Assembly: GCA_905372585.1 (NCBI GenBank)
Contig: CAJPPL010000001.1
Span: forward strand, 6,638-70,637
From: Streptococcus oralis
Lineage (GTDB): Bacteria; Bacillota; Bacilli; Lactobacillales; Streptococcaceae
DNA length: 64,000 bases
Direction of reading: 5' to 3'
Of the stretch, positions 9,180-32,680 are shown in pieces. The position numbers were made by a program, and so were the translations under genes. Under the pieces are notes generated by a model that had not been told where the DNA came from, ran no database searches, and saw only the letters and a list, made by a program, of their open reading frames with translations. Within the stretch, counting starts at the first letter, position 1. Each line of letters starts with the position of its first letter.

Positions 9180-9267
9180 CTATACTCTCCAATTCTTCCT
9201 ACCATTTTATCACTTTTTTAAGGATATGAAAACTAGAAAAGCCTGTTTTTATGCCAATACCAATCAT

Positions 9268-9304
9268 TAAAAAAACACTGCCAGATTTCTCTAGCAGTGT
9301 TTTG
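9268..9304 (-). terminator. Rho-independent terminator after msmK
   Basis: Read on the minus strand: ACACTGC...GCAGTGT stem followed by T7. Confidence 0.6.
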
Positions 9305-21489: not shown

Positions 21490-21852
21490 CTATAGGTTGA
21501 TCCCCTTCTCTCGGAGATTAGCCAGACACTCCTCATAGTATTCTGCATCATGCTCACTATAGATGGGCTTGCCTAGCTTCTCCTCAGGCAAGTCTTCATA
21601 GGGAGGGCAAATTTTGCCACGGTAGTCCTTATCCAGCCACTCTGGACTGACATTGTAGCCACGGTCAGCCATCTCCTCCATGATCAAGCGATGATAGGCA
21701 TAGAGACGATAGGGCGAGTGGGTAAAGACATAGTCCACCGTCGCATGCTTTCTGCCCCAGCCATTGCCACGCAGGGAACAGCACTCTCGATGTTGGCCCA
21801 AAAGTTGCGGACGGGGAAGTTGTGAAATCAAATCCTCATGCCAAAGTCTCAT
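21490..21852 (-). CDS. Pyrimidine-dimer DNA glycosylase (endonuclease V / DenV-like) family protein
   Basis: 120 aa. MRLWHEDLISQLPRPQLLGQHRE N-terminus is characteristic of the Pyr_excise family. Confidence 0.7.
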   Translation of the reverse strand: MRLWHEDLISQLPRPQLLGQHRECCSLRGNGWGRKHATVDYVFTHSPYRLYAYHRLIMEEMADRGYNVSPEWLDKDYRGKICPPYEDLPEEKLGKPIYSEHDAEYYEECLANLREKGINL

Positions 21853-22240
21853 GGGAGTCTCCTTTCAGTAAAGTCGAATGTTGCAAGTAGCTATTTGGAT
21901 AGAGTTCAAGCAACTCTCGAGTCTTAACAATCAAGTCTTCCTTGGAAGCTTGAGCAAAGCGGTAGCGATCCAGCAAGAGCATATAGTCCTTGCGCTCAGC
22001 ATCTGTCGCTTTCTTTTTAAAATAGCCCCAAATATGCTGAAAGGCATTGCAAACCTGACCCCTGTGCTCTGGAATCTGACAGGCACGGTCAATCAGTTCT
22101 TGAACATGACTCAGCTCTACCTCTTCATTCTTCAAGTATTGGCGAATCTCATTGTAAATATTGCTGGAATGGCTCAAAACGAGGTATTTATTTTCCGCCC
22201 AGAGTTGTTGACACTGGGATTTTTGGTTAGTTTGTTCCAT
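21836..22240 (-). CDS. DUF1722 (YbgA-like) family protein
   Basis: 134 aa and helical. Overlaps the DenV-like gene start. Assigned from pattern recollection only. Confidence 0.5.
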   Translation of the reverse strand: MEQTNQKSQCQQLWAENKYLVLSHSSNIYNEIRQYLKNEEVELSHVQELIDRACQIPEHRGQVCNAFQHIWGYFKKKATDAERKDYMLLLDRYRFAQASKEDLIVKTRELLELYPNSYLQHSTLLKGDSHETLA

Positions 22241-22374: not shown

Positions 22375-25300
22375 TTAAATACCTGAATAAGTATCTACCA
22401 ACAACTGAATCTTACGTAAAACTTCTTGCTTTTTCCGTTCACGCGCTCCCTGTCTACGAGAAGTCGGTGGAATAATCGAATCCAAATCAGCTCCACTATT
22501 CTCAGCATAACCACGTTGAATAGAACGATCAATGAATAATTGATAATCTTTTACAAGATTTTCAGACTCTGCCAATTCACGAATAGCGACTGCTTTACGT
22601 TCTTTACCATAAGCATAGAACGCATTGATAATTTCATCGTGGTCTTTCAGACTCGCTAAATCCGTATCATTAATGAATCCAATAACCAACTTTTCCTTAG
22701 TACGAATATCTACACTTGACCGAATAACACGGCTAACTTCAGCTTTCATTGCTTCTTTAGACTCAGAATTCTTCGATTTTTCAACAATCAAGGCCAGAAT
22801 ATAGTCTAGGTTGATCTCATCTGTTTTTAAGAGTTCAATTTCAAATTCAACATCTGAAAGGTCAACCTCTAAATCTTTGGTCTTTTCATAGTTTTTCAGA
22901 TTTAAGAATTCATCTCGAATTTCCACATAGGCGCTTCTTAAATCCTGAAGATAACCTTCAGAAATAGGTTTGTCGATTTCTTGGAATTCGTCATAATTTC
23001 GAAGAACATTATCAAGTTTCAACAACTCACCAAATAACTTAACAAACTCTTTTTTCTCATGTTCTGTTTCAATTTCTTGAGGATTTGGGAATTTCTCAAG
23101 AATTTCCTGACAAACTGCAATGTATCCTTTGACCTCGATACCCATTACTTGATCCACGAAACCATCCATGTATTCACTAAAGCTTTTTTCTAAGATGATT
23201 TCAAGCTTATTAGTGTCTCCAAAAGTCTTAATAGCTTCTTGCGTAGCCTTTTCTAAATCACGGAAACAAACAATATTCCCAAAAGGCTTAACCTTATTAA
23301 AAATTCGATTGGTTCTCGAGAATGCCTGAATCAATCCATGATAACGAAGATTTTTATCGACAAAGAGAGTATTCATAGTTGGAGCATCAAATCCCGTCAA
23401 AAACATGCCTACTACAATTAAAAGGTCAACTTCTTTAGACTTAACTCTCTTAGAAAGGTCGCGATAGTAATTTTGGAACTCCTTCCCATCAGTTGAGAAG
23501 TTAGTCTTGAACATTAGATTATAGTCATCAATCGCTTTTTCCAGAAACTCTTTAGACGATAGAGGCATAGCTGTATCTTGAGGTTCTAGCTCTTCGTCTT
23601 GAATTTCCCCATAAGCAGACTGTTCTTCATTAGGTGCAAAGCTAAAGATGGTAGCAACTTTTAAACGCTTAGCCTCTGGTAAAGCTACTTGTTGTCGCTG
23701 GAGTTCTTCATAGTATAACTTAGCAGCTTCAATACTTTGTACAGCTAGCATGGCATTAAACCCAAACAGTTGCTTTTGCTTATGAGTATAATGTTGATTT
23801 CGATGCGTCTTGTCATTATAAACTCTCAACAGGTACTCTGTGATGGTTGCTATCCGTTCTGGATGCAAAAGGAGTTCCTTCTCCATCTTTTTGAGTTTCT
23901 TCTCATCAACCTCTTTTCCAATTACCCCTACTGCTTGTTCTGCCTCTCGATATTTATTCAGCTCTGGCTTGATATAATTATAGTCTACTTTAAATTTTAA
24001 TACCTTCTTATCCCTTATTGCATCAGTAATAACATAGGAGTGTAACATGTCACCAAATACATCTTGAGTTGTCTCACCAGTTAATGTATTCGCTGAAAAG
24101 ATAGGAGTCCCTGTAAAACCAAATAATGAGAACTTCTTAAATGCTTTCTTGATTCTATTTTGAGCTTTACCAAATTGAGAACGATGGCACTCATCAAAAA
24201 TCAAAATACATTTTTTGTCATAAATAGGATGGTCAGTGTTTTTTGTAATGAAATTATTTAGCTTCTGAATCGTCGTAACAATAATTTTATCATCTGACAT
24301 TTCAATATTACGTTTTAGTTCTTTTGTATTATTGCTACCATTGACTGAATTTGGCTGAAATTTTTGATACTCCTTCATGGTCTGATAGTCAAGGTCTTTT
24401 CTATCAACGACGAATATCACTTTGTCAATGTAGTCCAACTCTGTTGCCAAGCGTGCAGTCTTAAAGCTGGTCAAGGTTTTCCCCGACCCTGTCGTATGCC
24501 AGATATAGCCACAAGCATTGATAGAGCCAAAGTTCTTCATTTCATTGGAAGAATGAATCTTGCGCAAGATACTCTCAGTTGCTGCTATCTGATAAGGGCG
24601 CATAATGAGCAAGGTATTATCAGCATCAAAAACACAATACTTGGTCAAAACTTCTAAGAGGACTCGCTTACTTAAGAAAGTGACAGTAAAGTCCTCGAGG
24701 TCATGAATTGTTTTATTTTTGCGGTCCGCCCACTCACAGGTGAACTCATAATGATTTTTATTTTGAGCTGTTGTATTGGCAAAGTAGCGTGTATAAGTGC
24801 CATTCGAAATGACAAAAATCTGAATGTATTTGTATAAAGAATTTGCGCTATTGAAGCTTTCCTTACTATAACGGTGAACCTGATTAAAGGCTTCTTGCAG
24901 ACTAACTCCACGTCTCTTCAATTCAATCTGAACTAACGGAAGACCATTCACTAAAATAGTCACGTCATAACGGTTGGTATGACTGCCCACTTGAGTCACT
25001 TGGTTGATCACCTGCATAGTGTTGTTATGAATATTTTTCTTATCAAGGATGAAAATATTTTTAATCCGTCCATCATCAAAGACAAAGTCATAGATGTAAT
25101 TTTCCTGGATTTTTCGAGTTTTTTCAACTAGACCTTCATTGGGACAGTCTAAATACTCTACCACAAAGCGATCCCACTCAGCATTCGAAAAAGTCACCTT
25201 ATTAAGTTTTTCTATTTGCACCTTAGCATTTGCTAAGAGCTCTTCAGGCGTATGGATATCTAGTCGTTCGTAGTTAAGATAATTAACCAAATCAGAAATC

Positions 25301-25428
25301 AATTGATTTTCTAGGTCAGCCTCAGACTGATATTCTCTATCTGTGCGATACTCTGGTTGATACTCAGCCAAGAGAATCCCTTCATTTGTTTCCGCAATTA
25401 CTTTTGTATCAGTAGGATAAGTAACCAA
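22375..25428 (-). CDS. hsdR: Type I restriction enzyme R subunit
   Basis: 1017 aa. N-terminal nuclease region, SF2 motor motif I HTTGSGKTLT and motif II IFDECHRSQ, and a long C-terminal helical domain. Confidence 0.9.
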   Translation of the reverse strand: MVTYPTDTKVIAETNEGILLAEYQPEYRTDREYQSEADLENQLISDLVNYLNYERLDIHTPEELLANAKVQIEKLNKVTFSNAEWDRFVVEYLDCPNEGLVEKTRKIQENYIYDFVFDDGRIKNIFILDKKNIHNNTMQVINQVTQVGSHTNRYDVTILVNGLPLVQIELKRRGVSLQEAFNQVHRYSKESFNSANSLYKYIQIFVISNGTYTRYFANTTAQNKNHYEFTCEWADRKNKTIHDLEDFTVTFLSKRVLLEVLTKYCVFDADNTLLIMRPYQIAATESILRKIHSSNEMKNFGSINACGYIWHTTGSGKTLTSFKTARLATELDYIDKVIFVVDRKDLDYQTMKEYQKFQPNSVNGSNNTKELKRNIEMSDDKIIVTTIQKLNNFITKNTDHPIYDKKCILIFDECHRSQFGKAQNRIKKAFKKFSLFGFTGTPIFSANTLTGETTQDVFGDMLHSYVITDAIRDKKVLKFKVDYNYIKPELNKYREAEQAVGVIGKEVDEKKLKKMEKELLLHPERIATITEYLLRVYNDKTHRNQHYTHKQKQLFGFNAMLAVQSIEAAKLYYEELQRQQVALPEAKRLKVATIFSFAPNEEQSAYGEIQDEELEPQDTAMPLSSKEFLEKAIDDYNLMFKTNFSTDGKEFQNYYRDLSKRVKSKEVDLLIVVGMFLTGFDAPTMNTLFVDKNLRYHGLIQAFSRTNRIFNKVKPFGNIVCFRDLEKATQEAIKTFGDTNKLEIILEKSFSEYMDGFVDQVMGIEVKGYIAVCQEILEKFPNPQEIETEHEKKEFVKLFGELLKLDNVLRNYDEFQEIDKPISEGYLQDLRSAYVEIRDEFLNLKNYEKTKDLEVDLSDVEFEIELLKTDEINLDYILALIVEKSKNSESKEAMKAEVSRVIRSSVDIRTKEKLVIGFINDTDLASLKDHDEIINAFYAYGKERKAVAIRELAESENLVKDYQLFIDRSIQRGYAENSGADLDSIIPPTSRRQGARERKKQEVLRKIQLLVDTYSGI

Positions 25429-25442
25429 TATTTATCTCCTTC

Positions 25443-26567
25443 TTAACTTTTCCAATTAAAGTTTTCAATAAATTGCTGATAGACCCGCTTTAAAACATTC
25501 TGTAGTTGTGGAGCCATTTGTTTTCCTTCATAATCAGAATATGAACTATGACTATGTAGGTTAATCATTCTTATATAAGGCGCACTATCTTCTATATTCC
25601 CTTCATCATCCTTTAGAATCACACAATCTCCCCATGTTCCATATCCTAAAAAAGTAGCTGTCTTTTCTAGCAAATTTCGTAAGAGATTAAAATGATACTT
25701 TTCTATTCGATTATTATCAATAGCGTCTTCCAGTTCTTTTTTTAACATTAAATGATATGCAAAAGGAGAATCACTTCGTTGTTTTTCAAGATAATAAAGT
25801 CTTTTTATTTTACTAAGTGTATATTTTTCACCATTCAACTCATTATGAAGGACATTATAAAATAAAGCATGGTGCGTTGTAATAATAAACTTTAAATTCG
25901 TATTGCTTGATTTTATTAACTTAGCTAAGTCTAAAGCAACATCAATAATCCTCCTATCATCTACGGACGAAATAGGATCGTCTATAAAAATGTACTCTAA
26001 TTTATCATACTCCGTTGACCGTCTATCCCCCTCAGGAAGACTTAACTGCTCAATTACATATTCAAGAAAAACATAAAATACAGACCATATAAAATTGCTT
26101 TCCTCTCCTCTGGAAATTTTAATATTATCAGAGGTATTTCCATCAATAGAAGAACTAAATGTAACAGAAGAAGAATCAGAGCTAAAAGATGCATCTAAAA
26201 CTACATTGTTAGAATTATTATTATCTGCCAAATAACTTTGAAACTTATTTACAATACGTACAGTATCACCTTCAACATTAATAATATTTTTTATCCAATA
26301 CGAACCAGGATTAATAAGGAGTCTTCTATTACAATCATATTCAAGGTCATTATCCCAATAAAATAAATCCTCTGTAAAAGCATTATAATACAGTATTTTA
26401 TTATATTGGTCCTCTTCTCCACTAGATAATAAGTTTTTAAACTCTATTGACAATCTCGTTTTACCGGTTCCATTAAACGCATATATTAACTGAACCTTTT
26501 TCTTACATTGCAGAATCTCTGATGCCACATCTACTAGTTCTTCATAACCGTTTTCATTAGTGATCAT
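25443..26567 (-). CDS. prrC: PrrC-like anticodon nuclease (AAA_13/ABC-type ATPase N-domain plus ACNase C-domain)
   Basis: 374 aa. Walker A FNGTGKT and Walker B FIDDPISSVDD. C-terminal LRNLLE...INLHSHS reproduces the R-x3-E...H arrangement of the PrrC catalytic triad. The position between hsdS and hsdR matches the E. coli prr locus. Confidence 0.7.
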   Translation of the reverse strand: MITNENGYEELVDVASEILQCKKKVQLIYAFNGTGKTRLSIEFKNLLSSGEEDQYNKILYYNAFTEDLFYWDNDLEYDCNRRLLINPGSYWIKNIINVEGDTVRIVNKFQSYLADNNNSNNVVLDASFSSDSSSVTFSSSIDGNTSDNIKISRGEESNFIWSVFYVFLEYVIEQLSLPEGDRRSTEYDKLEYIFIDDPISSVDDRRIIDVALDLAKLIKSSNTNLKFIITTHHALFYNVLHNELNGEKYTLSKIKRLYYLEKQRSDSPFAYHLMLKKELEDAIDNNRIEKYHFNLLRNLLEKTATFLGYGTWGDCVILKDDEGNIEDSAPYIRMINLHSHSSYSDYEGKQMAPQLQNVLKRVYQQFIENFNWKS

Positions 26568-26599
26568 AACTTTTTCCTAACTTTTTTACTTACTAAAAT

Positions 26600-27115
26600 C
26601 TAATAATTGACTCGCCAGTATTCGCACTGTTTTTGACGAAGTTCAATCTCCTTGGGCAGTCCCATATTTAAGTCGCTACAAACCATGTCAAAGTTGTCAA
26701 GAATCTGAACAATACCCGACTGTATTTCTAGAGAAGGGATGGGGATACAGAACTTTGAATAGGTTCCAATCCACTGTCTACTAAGTTGTTCTAGTTTATA
26801 AGTTATTGTATCCAAATAATACCATACGTAACGTAATAATACTTCACTTTCAAACCCATCCTTTATCGTTAATATTTTCATAGCTGATGATTTTACTTTA
26901 AAATTAAAATCTACCCATTGTTTTGATATCGTAAGATCATCAAAAATAATAACAGGATTGTTTTTACTAGCTTGATAAATACCATCTGTTTCATTTGGGT
27001 AACCTAAAATAAATGATTGTCCCACAGTTAAAACAGGGCTATCATTACTATCAGCATACTCTGTACTTAATACAATATATTTGTTTGGTTGCTCATAATC
27101 TACCACGTCCCCCAA
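26600..27115 (-). CDS. hsdS: Type I R-M specificity subunit, C-terminal half (TRD2 plus distal conserved region)
   Basis: The ORF lies in the same frame as the upstream hsdM-hsdS ORF, separated only by a TAG (27140-27142) and 8 sense codons (CFQVKWNE). It has a typical TRD entry (VKWNELGDVV) and a distal conserved helix (IPIPSLEIQSGIVQILDNF...ELRQKQCEYW). Only a TTG start with a weak RBS is available. Confidence 0.7.
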   Translation of the reverse strand: MGDVVDYEQPNKYIVLSTEYADSNDSPVLTVGQSFILGYPNETDGIYQASKNNPVIIFDDLTISKQWVDFNFKVKSSAMKILTIKDGFESEVLLRYVWYYLDTITYKLEQLSRQWIGTYSKFCIPIPSLEIQSGIVQILDNFDMVCSDLNMGLPKEIELRQKQCEYWRVNY

Positions 27116-27139
27116 TTCATTCCACTTAACCTGAAAACA

Positions 27140-29248
27140 CTAATCCTCAAATGATAATAGCTTATCTCGATAAAAAGAATATTGCTTTTTCCGTGAGGTC
27201 AATTCTGAGGTTAATTCTGAGGTTAATTCAGTAACATACTCAGTCATTTTGTCAAGTGTTTGCACTATTTCCTCTTGAATTTCTTCACTTTTAGGAATTG
27301 GTATAAGAGTAGTTTTTGCTTTACTCCAATGTCTTTTATAGCTTCCTTCTTTCTTATAAAAATTACAAAAGCAATAGTATATATATTTTGCTTTTATACC
27401 ACTCTTAGGTTTCAAAATTTTTAAGCCATCAGCTCCTTGAACAAAAGCGAAATCTATATATTTTACATGCTCTGAGTGATCCCCAAAAATGATATATTCA
27501 TCCTTATTCAGATATTTTTCATAATCTGAATAACCTGCAATGAATTGTTCCCCTTGATCAACAATTGGTATTTTCCCTGTTACTTGATACTCCTTTTTAG
27601 TTAATTTTACTGGACTTGTCACAGTATCAACCACTTCCCCCAACTCTTTCCATTCAACGGAACCGTTTTGGATTTCTTCTAGTATATTTCCTAATTTCTC
27701 TACTATCTTATCTATCTCTGCACGCAAATGAGCAATCTTTGTAACGGTCTCAGGAATTTCTTGATTAAGTTCATCAATATCAATCTTCTCACTTGTATCT
27801 TCTTGTTCAACATAGGTTGAGACAGAAAGATTATAGCCCTGCTCTGAACCAATCACTTCATTATCAACAAGAGCTGCTTTGTAGTCTAAACTTTGATAAT
27901 TAGCAAATAATTCAACGATATGGTCGATATTGTCATCCGTCAAGATATTGTTATTGGTCTCTTTTTTGAATTCCTTACTCGCATCGATAAAGAGTGTTTT
28001 ATTTTCTAGTTTATTCTTCGCCAACACTAAAATCGTGGTAGCGATAGGGGTTCCAAAAAAGAGATTTTCTGGAAGGGCAATAACCGCTTCAACAAAGTTG
28101 TTATCTACCAAATATTGACGAATAGTCTTCTCAGCACCACTACGATATAAAATGCCTGGAAAACAAACAATGGCTGCTCGACCTCTGTTAGACAAGTGAT
28201 TAAGACTATGCATGATAAAGGCAAAGTCAGCTTTTGACTTAGGAGCTAGTTTACCTGCTGGCGCAAAACGGTCATCGTTTATGAGAGTTGGATCTCCCTC
28301 TCCCACCCATTTGACAGAGTAAGGAGGGTTCGAAACAATAGCATCAAACGGTTTTTCATCCAAATGCTGAGGATTTAAAAGGGTGTCTCCTCGCTTGATA
28401 TCGAAGTTATTGTAGTTGATATTGTGCAAGAACATATTCATACGAGCCAAGTTATAGTTAGTCATATTAATTTCTTGACCAAAGAAACCATCCTCTAAGA
28501 TATGGTCTTCGTATTGCTTTTTCATCTGTAACAAGAGAGAACCTGACCCACATGTTGGATCGTAAACCTTGTTAATCTTGTCCTTACCAACCATTACCAA
28601 ACGAGCAAGTAATTTAGAAACTGTCTGAGGAGTGAAAAATTCACCACCACTTTTCCCAGCATTACTCGCATAGTTTGAAATCAAGAACTCATAGGCATCC
28701 CCAAAGGCATCAATATCATTTTCCTCAAAATTACCAAAGTTAATGCTATTGATACCATTAAGAATATCAGAAAGACGTTTATTTTTTTCTGGAACGGTTC
28801 CACCTAGGATATCACTTCTTGTATCCAAGTTATAGAACAAACCTTTGATATCTTCTTCTGATTTGAACCCAATTGCCGATTTTTCAATATCTTGGAAAAT
28901 ATTGGCCAACTCTTCGTTTAAATTTTCATTTTGTGAAGCGTTCTCGACAACATTTTCAAATAATTGACTTGGAAGGATAAAGAAACCTTTATCCTCAACT
29001 GTACCTGGTTTAAAATCTCGCTCAGCTTCTTGGTCACTCAAATTAGCATAACAAAATTCTAAATCCCCAGCTTCATGCTCAGCTCGATCGAAATAGTCAG
29101 CCATATGCTCTGAAATAAAGCGATAGAAAAGGATTCCCAGTATATACTGTTTAAAATCCCAGCCATCTACCGCCCCACGAACATCTTCTGCAATCGCCCA
29201 AATTTTACGGTGAAGCTCCTTGCGCTCTGCATTTTCTTTACTTGCCAT
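27140..29248 (-). CDS. hsdM: Type I R-M methyltransferase fused in frame to the N-terminal half of HsdS (TRD1 plus central conserved region)
   Basis: 702 aa. N6-adenine MTase motif [11 protein letters not shown] and motif IV SNPPYS. From about residue 520 onward there is an HsdS-type TRD ([12 protein letters not shown]...) and a conserved helix ([19 protein letters not shown]...(TSEL)3...[15 protein letters not shown]). Confidence 0.85.
27194..27229 (-). repeat. 3 x 12-bp tandem repeat encoding (TSEL)3 in the HsdS central conserved region
   Basis: Units are TGAGGTCAATTC, TGAGGTTAATTC and TGAGGTTAATTC on the plus strand. Translated, they give [12 protein letters not shown]. Confidence 0.9.
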
Positions 29249-29291: not shown

Positions 29292-29320
29292 TATTTTCGA
29301 TAGTAAAAAGCAATCGAACT

Positions 29321-29356
29321 AAGAAAACCCACTCGACCTGAATAGATCGAGTGGGG
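29321..29356 (-). terminator. Rho-independent terminator after the DUF4238-like gene
   Basis: 9-bp stem CCCACTCGA/TCGAGTGGG, followed on the minus strand by TTTTCTT. It separates the two-gene cassette from the R-M operon. Confidence 0.65.
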
Positions 29357-29385
29357 TAGATAAATATAAAGCTTGATTGAGATGG

Positions 29386-30297
29386 CTATGAAACACTTTC
29401 TAGATAATCCATTAAATCTGGATGAACAAATATCTGTTTCTCAGCATGCCTGACTTGAAAATCATTAACTAAATTTATAAATGAAATATCTGCGTTTGAA
29501 AGAAATCCTAATGTGTTATTCACATTTTTCATGATTCCTCCCCAAAAGTTCCTTGGTACTATTTTAATAAGAATTTTATTGGACAATGGATAGTAGATAA
29601 ATGTATCATCTCTTCCTACACCGTTGTCAGCGTAAGAAACTGAATTTCTAATAAAATTATACATCACAACTGGAGAATCACTTGTAATAAAAGGAACACT
29701 AGAATTATTGAAATAAATTAACCAAATTTTATCAACTAATGCCTTAGAAAGTTTTTCCAGTCTATCTACCTCTGCAATTAATGGAATAGTCATATCTCTT
29801 ATAAAGTCATTTTTATTATTTACAAAATCTTCTAGTATGCCTTTTATTATTTCAGGATGTAATTCAAACTGTTCTGATGTTTCGTTGATCTTTTCATCAA
29901 AAATAATTTCCCCATGTTCAAATCTACGTTCTAAAAATCCTGGTACCCGTAATATTTGAAAGGAGATCATTTTAGATAACGAGTGAATCTGAGAAACTGT
30001 TAAAACATCATTCTTTTTTTGAGATAACGTTAGTGAAGCAATTATGTTAGTCATCTCTGGTCCATATAAAGGTTCAATCTCGCTGGAGAAAAATTTCTCC
30101 CAATGTTTAGAATCTTTTTTATCACTAACGTCATAAAAGTTTTTCCTAAACGCCACATTATCAACTGAATCTATAAAAATTTTATTAGATTTTAATTGTT
30201 TAACTGCTATATTATAGCCTTTATTATTCAGATTTTTGTTACCGAATCGTTTTAAATAACTTTTAGGAACAACGTGCTGTTTAATATTTGATTTAAT
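29386..30297 (-). CDS. DUF4238-like protein (proposed ATT start)
   Basis: The reading frame is open from 30315. Codons upstream of the ORF-track GTG (30156) encode IKSNIKQHVVPKSYLKRFGN, which matches the conserved DUF4238 N-terminal HyvPqfyLrrF signature. A GGAGG sits 6 nt upstream of the ATT at 30297. There is no ATG, GTG or TTG in that stretch. Confidence 0.65.
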   Translation of the reverse strand: MKSNIKQHVVPKSYLKRFGNKNLNNKGYNIAVKQLKSNKIFIDSVDNVAFRKNFYDVSDKKDSKHWEKFFSSEIEPLYGPEMTNIIASLTLSQKKNDVLTVSQIHSLSKMISFQILRVPGFLERRFEHGEIIFDEKINETSEQFELHPEIIKGILEDFVNNKNDFIRDMTIPLIAEVDRLEKLSKALVDKIWLIYFNNSSVPFITSDSPVVMYNFIRNSVSYADNGVGRDDTFIYYPLSNKILIKIVPRNFWGGIMKNVNNTLGFLSNADISFINLVNDFQVRHAEKQIFVHPDLMDYLESVS

Positions 30298-30307
30298 CGT
30301 ATTCCTC

Positions 30308-31564
30308 CTATCTATCTAATTCACACAAGCCGACTTCTCGGAAACAAGATAGTATATCTTCTGAACTTAATTTTCCTGTTTTAAACTGTTCAAACATTTT
30401 TAAGAAAATAAGACTATCTACTATCAACACATTATTAGCCGCATTGCTGGCTACTTCAATAACATTATTGCTAACAGGTAGCCGTTCCTCAGGTTTTATA
30501 TCTTTAAATCGATTTACTATGATTATCTTTTTAATTACGTCTGGAACAACTTCTTTTGTTTCTTCATAAATATGTCCGTGAGTCACTAATTGTGAAACAT
30601 TTGATTTTTTTACATCTTTTGTTAACCCTTTAAATTCAAAAATGTAATGAATCCCATTTTTCTCGAAAGAATAATCTTCATTTTTTCTATCTTCAAATTC
30701 ACTTTGAACATCACACATTATTTCTAACATTTCTATCAAAATTACTTCTAATTCCGATCCTGATTTAAATAAAATTGATTCAAAACGTTTATTTTCACGA
30801 ATAATTTCTTTTGAAATTTTTATTTTATCTTTAGACTCTTCAATCTTTTTATTTTCTATTTGTATAGCTTCATTTTGATTAATATCATCAAAAAAATGTA
30901 GTTCTTGAAACCAGTCAGGTGCCTCTTCTTCGGTTTCATCCATCAAAACATTTTGTACCAAGACTGATAATTCATCATTATTTTTAGCTTGTAGAGTAGT
31001 TAATGAATACTTGCCATGTGATACAAATACTAATTTTTCGCTTCCGTCTGAATAGACCATATCCTCTGGTAGATTATAACCGTCATAATAATTCTCCCCC
31101 ATTTTTGAGTCAAAGTAGAAATCAGCTGATAGTTTAGTACCTGACAAATTTGTATGAGTTTTTTCGTAATACAAATCAATATCTATTGGTATAACTTTTT
31201 CTAAATTATGAACCAAATACCTGATAATATCTTTAAGTTGCTCCCTAGCCAAAAAATCTTTGTCTCTTCCTCTAATTGGTGTTGCATATTCCGTTTTAAA
31301 GCTAATATTTGGTGGTAGAATGTATAAGAATTTTGTCTTAGATGAGTGACAAACGCTAGTTAATAGCGTTTGAAAGTCATTATCGCAGTCTAGTTTTTCA
31401 AAATCCTTATTATAACAATAGTTTAACCAAATTGATGAACTAGTCAAATCGATAATATTTAAATCATAGGAATCTAAGGAATGAGCATGTCCAAATGAAT
31501 TACACTCCGTTACACTATAATCATTTTCATTACGTCCATTATAATTTATTAACTGTATCTGCAT
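30308..31564 (-). CDS. Hypothetical 418-aa protein: unknown N-domain, charged coiled-coil linker, PD-(D/E)xK-like C-domain
   Basis: ATG with a GAAAGGAAAAGA RBS. The C-terminal segment NEDYSFEKNGIHYIFEFKG gives a D-x12-E-x-K pattern, preceded by a helix containing E (ELEVILIEMLE). The stop codon lies within the SD sequence of the next gene. The DNA is very AT-rich. Confidence 0.7.
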   Translation of the reverse strand: MQIQLINYNGRNENDYSVTECNSFGHAHSLDSYDLNIIDLTSSSIWLNYCYNKDFEKLDCDNDFQTLLTSVCHSSKTKFLYILPPNISFKTEYATPIRGRDKDFLAREQLKDIIRYLVHNLEKVIPIDIDLYYEKTHTNLSGTKLSADFYFDSKMGENYYDGYNLPEDMVYSDGSEKLVFVSHGKYSLTTLQAKNNDELSVLVQNVLMDETEEEAPDWFQELHFFDDINQNEAIQIENKKIEESKDKIKISKEIIRENKRFESILFKSGSELEVILIEMLEIMCDVQSEFEDRKNEDYSFEKNGIHYIFEFKGLTKDVKKSNVSQLVTHGHIYEETKEVVPDVIKKIIIVNRFKDIKPEERLPVSNNVIEVASNAANNVLIVDSLIFLKMFEQFKTGKLSSEDILSCFREVGLCELDR

Positions 31565-31621
31565 TCTTTTCCTTTCTATCTTACATCGAATCTATTTTCT
31601 CTTTTTAATTTCCCTACCAAA

Positions 31622-31630
31622 ATTATACCA
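31622..31630 (-). promoter_or_regulatory. Extended -10 (TGGTATAAT) promoter for the two-gene cassette
   Basis: The minus strand reads CGTGGTATAATTTTGG about 55 nt upstream of the ATG at 31564. Confidence 0.5.
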
Positions 31631-31645
31631 CGAAACTACAGAAAT

Positions 31646-31671
31646 CCCCTTAGAAATCAATTCCTAAGGGG
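31646..31671. terminator. Hairpin/terminator at the island boundary
   Basis: Stem CCCCTTAG...CTAAGGGG with T-rich flanks on both strands. It lies directly after the stop of the 31678-32439 gene. Confidence 0.55.
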
Positions 31672-31677
31672 TTGTTT

Positions 31678-32439
31678 TTATCCTGCAACTGTTGCTGCTT
31701 CTTCTACTTTTACTTTTTTATCCTTCTTACTAGAACCAGTCAATCGCCGCTTGCTATCTCGGATTGTATTGAGGTCTTTAAGGAGTTGGGTCAGGTGTTC
31801 CTTTTCAGGATAGGCTTCTGCACTAGCTGCGGTATAGCGCATAAAGAGGTCATAGATGCTGGTTAGTTCGGTGCGGACTTGTCTGGTCTTGCCGACTTCC
31901 TTGGCAGACTTATGCGCACGTGCCTGACTTTCCACCTTATCATACTCCTCTTGAGCACTGATCACCGCCGTCAGCATAGGGGTCAATCCTAGACTAGTCA
32001 CTGCTGTCTGGTAGGGTTCCTCACTCAGGGTTTTGAGCAGGCTCTTGATTTCTGCCGTTTCCACATCATTGCTGTGCTTGGTGATATCCTTGTACTTGGC
32101 AAAGACTGGTTTCAAGGTCTCATTGGCTTCTTTGAGTTTGGTTTCCTTGATCTTAGCAAATCCTCGATGAAGGGTAAAGAGACCGACTAGGGCACTGTCA
32201 CGATTGCGATCGACTTCGGTCAGGTTCGTCGCCTCTTTCTTTTCCACTGTAGCTAGTTGGGCTTGGAAGTCTGCTAGTCTACTCTTGAAGGAATCAAGGT
32301 GCTTGCTATACATAGGTTCGTCCTTATGCGCCTTAGCAAAAACTTCTAGTAGTTGACCCGTGTCTACCATGAGACTTTCAAACTCACGGTTGGTAAAGTT
32401 GGTATAGCTTAGTGGACGGATAGTGAATATTTTTGTCAT
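31678..32439 (-). CDS. Hypothetical all-helical 253-aa protein (possibly DUF6261-like)
   Basis: Start chosen at MTKIFTI (ATG 32439, AAAGG RBS). Lys/Glu-rich and predicted helical, with core-like GC content. The family assignment is tentative and from memory. Confidence 0.55.
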   Translation of the reverse strand: MTKIFTIRPLSYTNFTNREFESLMVDTGQLLEVFAKAHKDEPMYSKHLDSFKSRLADFQAQLATVEKKEATNLTEVDRNRDSALVGLFTLHRGFAKIKETKLKEANETLKPVFAKYKDITKHSNDVETAEIKSLLKTLSEEPYQTAVTSLGLTPMLTAVISAQEEYDKVESQARAHKSAKEVGKTRQVRTELTSIYDLFMRYTAASAEAYPEKEHLTQLLKDLNTIRDSKRRLTGSSKKDKKVKVEEAATVAG

Positions 32440-32464
32440 GATGATAACCTTTCTATTTAACGAA

Positions 32465-32680
32465 TCATTTAGTTTTTTCTTTATCAAACCAAGACTGGAT
32501 CAGTTCTGGAAGATAGACCTGTTTTTGATCTGTTTTTACAATGCTTCCTTGTCTAGGAGGTTGAATCAAAGGTCTATCCTTAGATACAAAGACTTGAAAC
32601 AAAACACAGAACAACAATATGAGTCCCCATAAAAGAAGTGTCGATAGGAAACTCTCCTCATTTTCTTTATCTTTCTTCAT
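32465..32680 (-). CDS. Small (71-aa) single-pass membrane protein
   Basis: ATG at 32680 preceded by a perfect AAAGGAG RBS. One hydrophobic helix (LSTLLLWGLILLFCVLFQVFV). Lies 25 nt upstream of the next gene. Confidence 0.5.
   Translation of the reverse strand: MKKDKENEESFLSTLLLWGLILLFCVLFQVFVSKDRPLIQPPRQGSIVKTDQKQVYLPELIQSWFDKEKTK

What the first reader, a model, noticed from the sequence alone, without database searches (positions are those of the whole stretch)
29321..31671. Self-contained two-gene operon (418-aa PD-(D/E)xK-like protein plus DUF4238-like protein) next to the type I R-M/PrrC locus: candidate uncharacterised defence system
Seen in the sequence:
- Two co-directional minus-strand ORFs (30308-31564 and 29386-30297) form a compact unit. 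They have their own extended -10 promoter (TGGTATAAT, 31622-31630) and their own terminator (29321-29356).
- The stop codon of gene 1 lies inside the Shine-Dalgarno sequence of gene 2, which suggests translational coupling.
- The DNA is by eye far more AT-rich than the flanking core genes. It sits immediately upstream of a type I R-M system with an embedded anticodon nuclease.
- Gene 1 has an N-terminal region of about 210 aa that I cannot assign to any family. This is followed by a highly charged linker (ENKKIEESKDKIKISKEIIRENKRFE) and a C-terminal module with a helix containing E and then D-x12-E-x-K (NEDYSF...HYIFEFKG). That is the layout of a PD-(D/E)xK nuclease core.
- Gene 2 carries the DUF4238 N-terminal signature (QHVVPKSYLKRF).

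From knowledge: DUF4238 has no assigned biochemical function. I recall it as enriched in defence islands and possibly a component of the two-gene Dazbog system, but I cannot verify that here.

Inference: this looks like a nuclease effector paired with a DUF4238 partner, acting as an anti-phage or abortive-infection module. The specific pairing and architecture may be undescribed.
Basis: partly seen in the sequence, partly recalled or inferred. Interest (0 to 1): 0.85.

Follow-up and report, generated by a model that had tools for sequence, protein, structure and literature searches.

The report
Two stacked single-gene defence candidates
The two genes are real and share one transcription unit, but they look like two independent anti-phage genes parked beside a restriction system: an unnamed, widespread predicted nuclease and a DUF4238 protein of a family already shown to block phage.

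Summary
Two minus-strand genes (30308-31564 and 29386-30297/30300) lie between two terminators, behind a conserved extended -10, in 28-30% GC DNA. One correction: gene 2 has no canonical start. Where relatives have ATG, the window has ACG followed by ATT, behind a perfect AGGAGG.

Gene 2 is a full-length DUF4238 protein (Pfam E=3.9e-33). That family already has a published single-gene anti-phage member. It is not Dazbog: PADLOC gives no hit.

Gene 1 belongs to a large family with no Pfam or PADLOC model: 2587 clusters at 50% identity, all about 410 aa. It has an N-terminal alpha/beta domain, a long helix, and a C-terminal FokI/restriction-endonuclease-like PD-(D/E)xK domain. D297, E310 and K312 are essentially invariant.

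The pairing is the weak point. DUF4238 sits next to gene 1 only in the mitis-clade loci (11 of 74), and in 0 of the other 63. In 28 loci gene 1 lies on the same strand as type I R-M genes, in the tightest cases 3-30 nt from them. The nearest outgroup DUF4238 genes stand alone, mostly as hsdS-DUF4238-hsdM.

My reading is two independent R-M-embedded cargo genes stacked in a defence hotspot. Gene 1's family is the novel lead. Interest is moderate.

The parts
31646..31671 (-). Terminator-like hairpin closing the upstream DUF6261 gene. It marks the upstream boundary of the cassette.
   Evidence: 11-bp stem, 4-nt loop, T-rich tail.
31622..31630 (-). Extended -10 promoter element, TGgTATAAT.
   Evidence: Read. 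The GTATAAT core is invariant in 11/11 mitis-clade loci and the TG in 10/11, including loci with unrelated upstream DNA. The sigma-70 scan found no -35 partner.
30308..31564 (-). Gene 1: a 418-aa protein of a large family with no Pfam or PADLOC model.
   Evidence: 2587 clusters at E<=1e-3, 449 at E<=1e-30. No Pfam, NCBIfam, PHROG or PADLOC hit. AlphaFold2 model with pLDDT 87.2.
30929..31564 (-). Gene 1 N-terminal alpha/beta domain (aa 1-212), a possible sensor or ligand-binding module.
   Evidence: Model. Weak fold matches to class I glutamine-amidotransferase/flavodoxin-like proteins, E 0.01-0.5. Near-invariant D31, N36, D63, N86, K111, E134 and T138, with no conserved Cys/His triad.
30710..30928 (-). 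Gene 1 helical linker (aa 213-285).
   Evidence: secondary structure. The segment is acidic, pI about 4.5.
30311..30709 (-). Gene 1 C-terminal PD-(D/E)xK (FokI/restriction-endonuclease-like) domain (aa 286-418). The core D297...E310-x-K312 lies at 30629-30676.
   Evidence: The model from residue 269 reads helix, strands, helix, strand. Foldseek matches: FokI 2fok_A E=6.9e-3 with prob 1.0, then R.BspD6I small subunit, La Crosse virus endonuclease, Avs4, Cdn1 and Hjc. Viral 'restriction endonuclease' and Mrr-domain proteins also match. D292, D297 and K312 are conserved in 118/118; E310 and Q325 in 117/118; H329 in 114/118.
30295..30310 (-). Gene 1/gene 2 junction: TAG stop (30310-30308) overlapping AGGAGG (30309-30304), then ACG (30300-30298) and ATT (30297-30295).
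   Evidence: Relatives carry ATG where the window has ACG.
29386..30300 (-). Gene 2: a DUF4238 protein of 303-304 codons with a non-AUG start (ACG or ATT).
   Evidence: Pfam PF14022 E=3.9e-33. The ORF is intact, and dN/dS is 0.22-0.36 among the comparable genomes that share the ACG allele. AlphaFold2 model with pLDDT 91.6 and pTM 0.88. No PDB fold match.
29318..29355 (-). Intrinsic-terminator-like hairpin plus T-run closing the cassette.
   Evidence: 12-bp stem, 7 GC pairs.
22375..29248 (-). Context: a type I R-M block with embedded PrrC. It comprises the hsdM-hsdS(N-half) fusion (27140-29248), an hsdS half (26600-27115), prrC (25443-26567) and hsdR (22375-25428).
   Evidence: Pfam. PADLOC PrrC E=3.3e-123 and Specificity_I E=4.5e-37. 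The block is absent next to the pair in 8 of the 11 related loci.
31678..32487 (-). Context: a DUF6261 gene that flanks the variable cargo site.
   Evidence: Pfam PF19775 E=4e-36. The same gene flanks other cargo in L013, L075, L080 and L082.

Best explanation
The cassette is one transcription unit carrying two evolutionarily independent single-gene defence candidates. They are stacked at a variable cargo site next to a DUF6261 gene, at the 5' edge of a type I R-M/PrrC operon.

Gene 1 belongs to a large family with no Pfam or PADLOC model. Its usual home is inside type I R-M operons, most often between hsdS and hsdR. I infer that it is a latent nuclease. The C-terminal FokI-like PD-(D/E)xK domain would cut nucleic acid. 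The long helix would mediate the dimerisation such domains need. The conserved polar pocket of the N-terminal alpha/beta domain would hold the enzyme off until a signal of infection arrives.

Gene 2 is a DUF4238 protein, a family with a published single-gene anti-phage member. Its Streptococcus subfamily normally sits alone between hsdS and hsdM. In this strain it is probably translated at a low level from a non-AUG codon, by coupling to gene 1.

Shown here: gene structure, family membership, gene neighbourhoods and predicted folds. Inferred: nuclease activity, the trigger and the anti-phage function.
For: Cassette boundaries and the conserved -10 element.

Gene 1:
- The family is large and has one uniform architecture.
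- It has no Pfam or PADLOC model, although this PADLOC copy includes the guilt-by-embedding PDC candidates.
- In 28 of 74 loci, hsd genes lie on the same strand within 5 kb. The tightest cases show gaps of -8 to +30 nt on both sides: L023, L035, L041, L053.
- Immediate neighbours are dominated by HsdR and HsdS, with AbiH and Abi_2 also present.
- The nuclease motif and fold are supported.

Independence of the two genes:
- DUF4238 is found in 0 of 63 non-mitis gene 1 loci.
- Gene 1 homologs of 44-52% identity in S. sanguinis, S. raffinosi, S. varani and S. pacificus lack it.
- DUF4238 relatives of 43-55% identity stand alone as hsdS-DUF4238-hsdM or beside Hachiman.

Other points:
- DUF4238 alone protects against T7 (PMC9122126).
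- The pair occurs with or without the adjacent R-M block.
- Gene 2 is still under purifying selection despite the ACG codon.
Against: - The two genes share one promoter and one terminator. They are 7-10 nt apart, and the stop codon lies inside the Shine-Dalgarno sequence.
- They are adjacent in all 11 mitis-clade genomes, and fused in one of them, L007. This is what a true two-gene system would also look like.
- No experiment exists for either protein in Streptococcus.
- Fold matches for the nuclease domain are weak by E-value (best 6.9e-3), and the N-domain match is weaker still.
- 46 of 74 gene 1 loci show no R-M on the same strand within 5 kb, and many of their neighbours are not obviously defence genes.
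Confidence: 0.55

Rival explanations
1. This is an obligate two-gene defence system. DUF4238 would sense infection or regulate, and gene 1 would be its nuclease effector. In the mitis clade the two would work only together.
For: - One promoter and one terminator, with the stop inside the Shine-Dalgarno sequence.
- The genes are adjacent in 11/11 mitis-clade loci and in L080.
- An in-frame natural fusion exists in L007.
- The cassette moves as a unit, with or without the R-M block.
Against: - Adjacency is confined to one shallow clade (gene 1 at least 87% identical), so shared descent explains it.
- 0 of 63 other gene 1 loci have DUF4238.
- Six of the seven distinct DUF4238 contexts examined lack gene 1.
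- DUF4238 works alone in E. coli.
- No fused proteins appear in the protein searches.
Confidence: 0.2
2. Gene 1 is not an autonomous defence gene. It would be an accessory or guard of type I R-M enzymes, analogous to PrrC: held inactive by the Hsd complex and released when a phage anti-restriction protein attacks that complex.
For: - Its operon position is between hsdS and hsdR, with gaps of a few nucleotides in many phyla.
- PrrC occupies a similar embedded position in this very window.
- The whole protein is acidic, which fits protein binding at least as well as DNA binding by the N-domain.
Against: - 46 of 74 loci have no hsd gene on the same strand within 5 kb.
- 8 of the 11 mitis-clade loci carry the pair without the adjacent R-M block.
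- The window already has a PrrC.
- Embedding is also typical of fully autonomous systems, as described in the preprint 10.1101/2024.01.29.577857.
Confidence: 0.15
3. The cassette is partly decayed or unrelated to defence. Gene 2 would be a start-codon pseudogene in this strain, and gene 1 a mobile-element or housekeeping nuclease that merely hitch-hikes in AT-rich acquired DNA.
For: - ATG is replaced by ACG in the window.
- Gene callers elsewhere report truncated 256-258-aa products.
- Gene 1 is split by frameshifts in L011, L016, L059 and L062.
- There is no functional data.
Against: - The gene 2 ORF is intact in all six genomes with the ACG allele. dN/dS is 0.22-0.36 in every pair that does not involve L011, whose indel breaks the ungapped comparison.
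- Those genomes also have a stronger Shine-Dalgarno sequence.
- Gene 1 keeps its full length and its catalytic residues across 118 distant relatives.
- Gene 1 has no match in 50,697 phage records. Its one plasmid-collection match is a 2.1-Mb record.
- The neighbourhoods are rich in defence genes.
Confidence: 0.1

Closest known systems
DUF4238 single-gene anti-phage system (Rousset et al. 2022, PMC9122126)
   Same: Gene 2 is a full-length Pfam PF14022 protein. It sits in defence hotspots and often stands alone.
   Different: Gene 2 is only 22-26% identical to the enterobacterial plasmid DUF4238 proteins found here. Its subfamily is typically embedded between hsdS and hsdM. In this window it lacks an AUG start and is co-transcribed with gene 1. 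The mechanism of the family is unknown, and a confident model has no PDB fold match.
PrrC / RloC (anticodon nucleases embedded in type I R-M operons)
   Same: Gene 1 homologs occupy a comparable embedded position inside hsd operons. A latent nuclease linked to R-M is a plausible working model.
   Different: There is no sequence or domain relationship. PrrC is an ABC-ATPase/HEPN-type RNase and is present separately in this window. Gene 1 has a PD-(D/E)xK domain and no ATPase. Most gene 1 loci have no adjacent R-M.
FokI-type cleavage domain, and Mrr-like type IV or type IIS restriction enzymes
   Same: These are the best fold matches of the C-terminal domain. The layout is also the same: an N-terminal specificity or sensor module, a helical linker and a C-terminal PD-(D/E)xK domain.
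   Different: There is no detectable sequence similarity: no PDB sequence hit at E<=10. The N-domain resembles no known DNA-recognition domain and is acidic. No cognate methylase is dedicated to it.
Guilt-by-embedding candidates (HEC/PDC, Payne et al. 2024 preprint 10.1101/2024.01.29.577857) and TgvAB (PMC11411939)
   Same: The logic and genomic position are the same: uncharacterised genes nested in type I R-M operons that turn out to be independent defences.
   Different: Gene 1 matches none of the PDC/HEC models in PADLOC-DB 2.0.0. That database does contain PDC models. TgvAB is GmrSD-like and unrelated.
   Same: It is a two-gene defence system. Nothing further could be shown to be shared.
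   Different: Neither protein hits any PADLOC model at E<=10. A literature search for Dazbog, DzbA and DzbB returned nothing usable.

Membership tests
DUF4238 (Pfam PF14022) defence family | Full-length match to the PF14022 profile above the gathering score | tested here: met
   E=3.9e-33, 115.5 bits against a cutoff of 27, covering profile positions 1-279 of 281.
DUF4238 (Pfam PF14022) defence family | Functions as a single gene, with no obligate partner | tested here: inconclusive
   Relatives of 32-55% identity stand without gene 1. The window's own clade always has gene 1 upstream.
DUF4238 (Pfam PF14022) defence family | Anti-phage activity | not testable with these tools
   The only evidence is the published E. 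coli P2-hotspot homolog tested against T7 (PMC9122126).
DUF4238 (Pfam PF14022) defence family | An expressed, intact gene | tested here: inconclusive
   The ORF is intact and under purifying selection. The start codon is ACG/ATT rather than ATG.
PD-(D/E)xK nuclease superfamily (gene 1 C-domain) | A conserved acidic-acidic-lysine motif, D...(D/E)xK | tested here: met
   D297 in 118/118, E310 in 117/118 and K312 in 118/118 relatives.
PD-(D/E)xK nuclease superfamily (gene 1 C-domain) | The alpha-beta-beta-beta-alpha-beta core fold | tested here: met
   The predicted topology runs H269-284, E298-302, E305-315, H320-337, E344-352 at pLDDT around 90. The top Foldseek matches are FokI, R.BspD6I, bunyavirus endonuclease and Hjc, but the best E-value is only 6.9e-3.
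PD-(D/E)xK nuclease superfamily (gene 1 C-domain) | Metal-dependent nuclease activity | not testable with these tools
   This needs biochemistry.
Dazbog | Match to the DzbA/DzbB profiles | tested here: not met
   No PADLOC-DB 2.0.0 hit for either protein at E<=10. That this database holds Dazbog models rests on my own knowledge of it.
Shedu (SduA, DUF4263 nuclease) | DUF4263 domain or the PADLOC SduA profile | tested here: not met
   No Pfam or PADLOC hit for gene 1 or for 118 relatives.
PrrC-like R-M-dependent abortive-infection nuclease | Embedded in a type I R-M operon | tested here: inconclusive
   True for 28 of 74 gene 1 loci. In the window gene 1 lies outside the operon, upstream of a terminator, and 8 of the 11 mitis-clade loci lack the R-M block.
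PrrC-like R-M-dependent abortive-infection nuclease | Homology to PrrC (ABC-ATPase plus anticodon-nuclease domain) | tested here: not met
   The PADLOC PrrC model hits the 374-aa ORF at 25443-26567 (E=3.3e-123), not gene 1.
PADLOC guilt-by-embedding candidates (PDC/HEC) | Match to any PDC/HEC profile | tested here: not met
   No hit. PDC models are present in the library, for example PDC-M16A and PDC-S06.

The most novel reading that the evidence does not exclude
Gene 1 would be the founding example of a widespread, undescribed family of about 410-aa defence nucleases. At least 449 clusters at 50% identity match strongly (E<=1e-30). The related loci come from Bacillota (including Mollicutes-type lineages), Campylobacter, Deferribacteraceae and one Methanobrevibacter genome, and a Fusobacterium record also matches. 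The family would have a new N-terminal sensor domain and would habitually ride inside type I R-M operons, perhaps acting as a back-up that fires when restriction is evaded or inhibited. In the mitis clade it would additionally have been welded to DUF4238 into a co-translated unit.
Probability: 0.3. Interest if true: 0.65.

Novelty: new variant of a known kind. Interest (0 to 1): 0.45.

Why it matters
If gene 1's family is a real defence nuclease, it adds a large family that Pfam and PADLOC do not cover to the set of immune genes nested in type I R-M operons. It would also add a new sensor domain fused to a FokI-like cutter, which could be of use for engineering.

The DUF4238 part adds little beyond a Streptococcus subfamily with a characteristic hsdS-DUF4238-hsdM position and an unusual non-AUG start. 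For oral streptococci, the DUF6261-flanked site is a compact, swappable defence hotspot worth cataloguing.

Tried and rejected
- Pfam, NCBIfam, PHROGs and PADLOC on gene 1 gave only noise.
- Scanning 118 diverse family members individually against Pfam at E<=1 gave no recurrent family. The commonest were RST in 7 members and mCpol in 4, taken as noise.
- Profile searches of PDB sequences with both families found nothing meaningful.
- A Foldseek search of the confident DUF4238 model against the PDB gave nothing (best E 0.83, prob 0.04). No mechanism can be read from its fold.
- A literature search for Dazbog, DzbA and DzbB returned nothing.
- A programmed +1 frameshift joining gene 1 to gene 2 was considered and dropped. 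The AGGAGG lies downstream of the stop rather than upstream as in prfB. The only fusion seen, L007, comes from a 4-nt deletion in GATAGATAG.
- A glutamine-amidotransferase function for the N-domain was rejected. No Cys/His/Glu triad is conserved.
- A CARF/Card1-like reading was not pursued. Cdn1 matched over only 111-142 alignment columns.
- tblastn of gene 1 against phages found no match. Against plasmids it found one match, in a 2.1-Mb record without annotation.
Full report
**1. The observation.**

Gene 1 is an ATG-started 418-codon ORF at 30308..31564 on the minus strand. Directly after its TAG stop (30310-30308), a second frame stays open down to 29386. The stop overlaps a perfect AGGAGG (30309-30304). 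An extended -10 element, TGgTATAAT, lies at 31630-31622. Terminator-like hairpins lie at 31671-31646, closing the upstream gene, and at 29355-29328, closing the pair. GC is 0.28-0.30 over the pair against 0.42-0.48 in the flanking core genes.

The correction concerns gene 2's start. The codon at 30297 is ATT. The first canonical start is GTG at 30156, which would give 256 aa. That product would lack the N-terminal QHxVPxxYLxxF motif, and H8, Y14, L15 and F18 of that motif are invariant in the subfamily.

**2. Gene 2's start codon.**

Relatives begin MIKSN.... Alignment of the junction in 11 related genomes shows two alleles:
- TAGGAGGAATACGATT in the window, L001, L003, L006, L009 and L011.
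- TAGAAGGAATATGATT in L002, L004 and L010, with the ATG also present in variant junctions in L005, L007 and L008.

So the window carries ACG where others have ATG, together with a stronger Shine-Dalgarno sequence. All six genomes with the ACG allele keep the ORF intact. Pairwise dN/dS is 0.22-0.36, leaving out pairs with L011, whose indel breaks the ungapped comparison. The first 47 codons show 0-1 non-synonymous changes.

I conclude that gene 2 is still coding here and starts at a non-AUG codon. ATT lies 6 nt after the AGGAGG and ACG 3 nt after it. Translation is probably coupled to gene 1. This is an inference.

Two junction variants exist. In L007, loss of one GATA unit of GATAGATAG fuses the two ORFs in frame into 735 codons. 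In L008 the stop has become TTG.

**3. What gene 2 is.**

Gene 2 matches Pfam DUF4238 over the whole profile (E=3.9e-33). A single DUF4238 protein from an E. coli P2-prophage hotspot gives strong resistance to T7 (PMC9122126). The domain also appears in a TIR-containing defence system (PMC11350192). It is listed as a defence system in Pseudomonas surveys.

A confident AlphaFold2 model (pLDDT 91.6, pTM 0.88) has no PDB fold match (best E 0.83). Sequence profiles find no solved relative either. The mechanism therefore stays unknown. The invariant residues are H8, Y14, Y55, E67, Q114, R117, N197 and T205-S206-D207-x-P209.

Distant relatives (22-26% identity) lie on 636 plasmid records, of which 588 are conjugative and most are from Enterobacteriaceae. 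PADLOC has no hit, so the recalled Dazbog link is not supported.

**4. What gene 1 is.**

Gene 1 has no Pfam, NCBIfam, PHROG or PADLOC model. A word-indexed search found 58 relatives, and every one that carries an organism name is from Streptococcus. An exhaustive profile search then found 2587 clusters at 50% identity with E<=1e-3, of which 449 have E<=1e-30. The 150 best listed are nearly all 380-440 aa and aligned end to end. Scanning 118 of them one by one against Pfam at E<=1 gave no recurrent family.

The AlphaFold2 model (pLDDT 87.2) shows three parts:
- an alpha/beta domain, residues 1-212;
- a 39-residue helix, 227-265;
- a C-terminal helix-strands-helix-strand unit.

In the C-terminal unit D292, D297 and K312 are conserved in 118/118 relatives, E310 and Q325 in 117/118, and H329 in 114/118.

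Foldseek's best matches for the whole model include these PD-(D/E)xK nucleases:
- FokI, E=6.9e-3, probability 1.0
- the R.BspD6I small subunit
- the La Crosse virus endonuclease
- Avs4
- Cdn1
- Hjc

Viral 'restriction endonuclease' and Mrr-domain proteins also match. The E-values are weak, but the matches agree with the motif and the topology. I accept the nuclease-fold assignment.

The N-domain weakly resembles class I glutamine-amidotransferase/flavodoxin-like folds (E 0.01-0.5). It has no conserved Cys/His triad. It does carry near-invariant D31, N36, D63, N86, K111, E134 and T138, which suggests a ligand or catalytic pocket. The whole protein is acidic.

**5. Is it a two-gene system?**

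I scanned one genome per species (GTDB) and obtained 74 loci encoding a gene 1 relative. They come from Streptococcus, many Clostridia, Mollicutes/Tenericutes, Campylobacter, Deferribacteraceae and one Methanobrevibacter.

DUF4238 lies next to gene 1 only in L001-L011, all from mitis, australis or infantis-type streptococci with gene 1 at least 87% identical. A DUF4238 profile HMM finds it in 0 of the other 63 loci.

Instead, 28 of the 74 loci have hsd genes on the same strand within 5 kb. The typical order is (Fic)-hsdM-hsdS-gene 1-hsdR. In the tightest cases the gaps on both sides are -8 to +30 nt: L023 27/27, L035 9/-4, L041 8/3, L053 12/18. A second order is hsdR-gene 1-...-hsdS-...-hsdM, seen in L012, L016 and L050.

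The immediate neighbours outside the mitis clade are most often HsdR (13-14 of 112 flanks) and HsdS (9 of 112). AbiH and Abi_2 also occur.

The converse holds for gene 2. Its nearest relatives outside the clade lack gene 1:
- P0113 (55% identity) follows Hachiman at the same DUF6261-flanked site.
- P0114 (52%), P0262 (51%, with Gabija-like genes) and P0267 (43%, with a reverse transcriptase) are each hsdS-DUF4238-hsdM.
- P0263 stands alone among housekeeping genes.
- P0274 follows BREX genes.

Only P0093 (84%) repeats the window's layout.

So each gene has its own independent history as cargo in or near type I R-M operons. Their adjacency is confined to one shallow clade.

**6. What still argues for linkage.**

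The cassette behaves as a unit. The GTATAAT core upstream of gene 1 is invariant in 11/11 loci, even where the upstream DNA is unrelated, as in L006 and L009. The pair occurs with the adjacent R-M block (window, L004, L011, L080; in L006 after hsdS). It also occurs without that block, directly followed by the DUF1722 and pyrimidine-dimer glycosylase genes and metE, in L001, L002, L003, L005, L007, L008, L009 and L010.

Co-transcription, and probably coupled translation, are therefore likely. Functional cooperation in this clade cannot be excluded. I give it 0.2.

**7. Context.**

Downstream lies a type I R-M block:
- a 702-aa HsdM fused to the N-terminal half of an HsdS;
- a second HsdS half;
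- PrrC (PADLOC E=3.3e-123);
- HsdR.

The DUF6261 gene (31678-32487) flanks alternative cargo in other streptococci:
- Hachiman plus DUF4238;
- a reverse transcriptase plus hsdS-DUF4238-hsdM;
- an unknown 508-aa protein plus gene 1;
- an SNF2-like helicase.

This marks a defence hotspot.

**8. Mechanism.**

Most likely (0.55), these are two autonomous single-gene modules that are co-transcribed. Gene 1 would be a latent, probably dimeric FokI-like nuclease controlled by its N-domain. Gene 2 would be a DUF4238 defence protein of unknown chemistry, expressed at a low level from a non-AUG start.

A PrrC-like guard role for gene 1 is attractive because of its operon position. It is weakened because most loci, including 8 of the 11 in the mitis clade, have no adjacent R-M (0.15). 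Decay or a non-defence role is unlikely given the conservation (0.1).

**9. Novelty and score.**

DUF4238 is a known kind of defence gene. Gene 1's family is absent from Pfam and from PADLOC-DB 2.0.0, even though that database includes the guilt-by-embedding PDC candidates. My literature searches surfaced nothing that describes such a family. It is a good candidate for a new defence nuclease of a familiar type: embedded in R-M operons, with a PD-(D/E)xK effector.

The specific claim of a new two-gene system is not supported. Hundreds of comparable embedded candidates already exist, so interest is moderate at 0.45.

Noticed in passing
window 26600-29248 (-): The hsdM ORF is 702 aa. It consists of HsdM fused in frame to the N-terminal half of an HsdS (PADLOC Specificity_I E=4.5e-37 on aa 510-702), and it ends in a [13 protein letters not shown] repeat. 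A separate 171-aa HsdS half follows. Relatives (L004, L080) instead have hsdM, rhuM, hsdS and a second hsdS, so rhuM has been lost and the specificity gene rearranged here.
   Followed up: partly
window 25443-26567 (-): The 374-aa ORF inside the R-M operon is a clear PrrC (PADLOC PrrC E=3.3e-123).
   Followed up: yes
window 30295-30310; L001-L011 near 9250-9275: Two junction alleles exist among species representatives. AGGAGG with ACG occurs in 6 genomes. AGAAGG-type with ATG occurs in the rest. The weak start codon travels with the stronger Shine-Dalgarno sequence, which may tune down expression of DUF4238.
   Followed up: partly
L007 7974-10178; L008 near 9255-9270: In L007, loss of one GATA unit of GATAGATAG fuses gene 1 and gene 2 into a single 735-codon ORF. 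In L008 the gene 1 stop has become TTG. No fused protein appears in the large protein databases, so these look like one-off events.
   Followed up: partly
L011, L016, L059, L062 (gene 1 homologs): Gene 1 is split into two ORFs in four species representatives, apparently by frameshift or stop. This indicates occasional decay of the family.
   Followed up: no
window 31678-32487 and L013, L075, L080, L082: The DUF6261 gene flanks a variable cargo site in several oral streptococci. Alternative contents are Hachiman plus DUF4238, a reverse transcriptase plus hsdS-DUF4238-hsdM, an unknown 508-aa protein plus gene 1, and an SNF2-like helicase.
   Followed up: partly
gene 2 model m8356e66f6708 (window 29386-30300): A high-confidence DUF4238 model (pLDDT 91.6, pTM 0.88) has no Foldseek match in the PDB (best E 0.83). 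No solved structure resembles the fold.
   Followed up: yes
plasmid collection (hits H3-H14): Distant DUF4238 relatives (22-26% identity) occur on 636 plasmid records, 588 of them conjugative. Most are from Escherichia, Salmonella and Klebsiella.
   Followed up: no
gene 1 family members (alignment A6): Four of 118 family members give weak Pfam hits to mCpol, the minimal CRISPR polymerase domain (best E 1.3e-3). This is probably noise. It would be worth a profile-profile check of the N-domain against nucleotide-cyclase/Palm folds.
   Followed up: no
window 21490-22240 (-): Two small genes, DUF1722 and a pyrimidine-dimer DNA glycosylase (Pyr_excise), lie between hsdR and metE. In genomes without the R-M block they directly follow the gene 1/DUF4238 pair. 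The roughly 6.9-kb R-M/PrrC block is therefore an insertion or deletion difference between genomes.
   Followed up: partly
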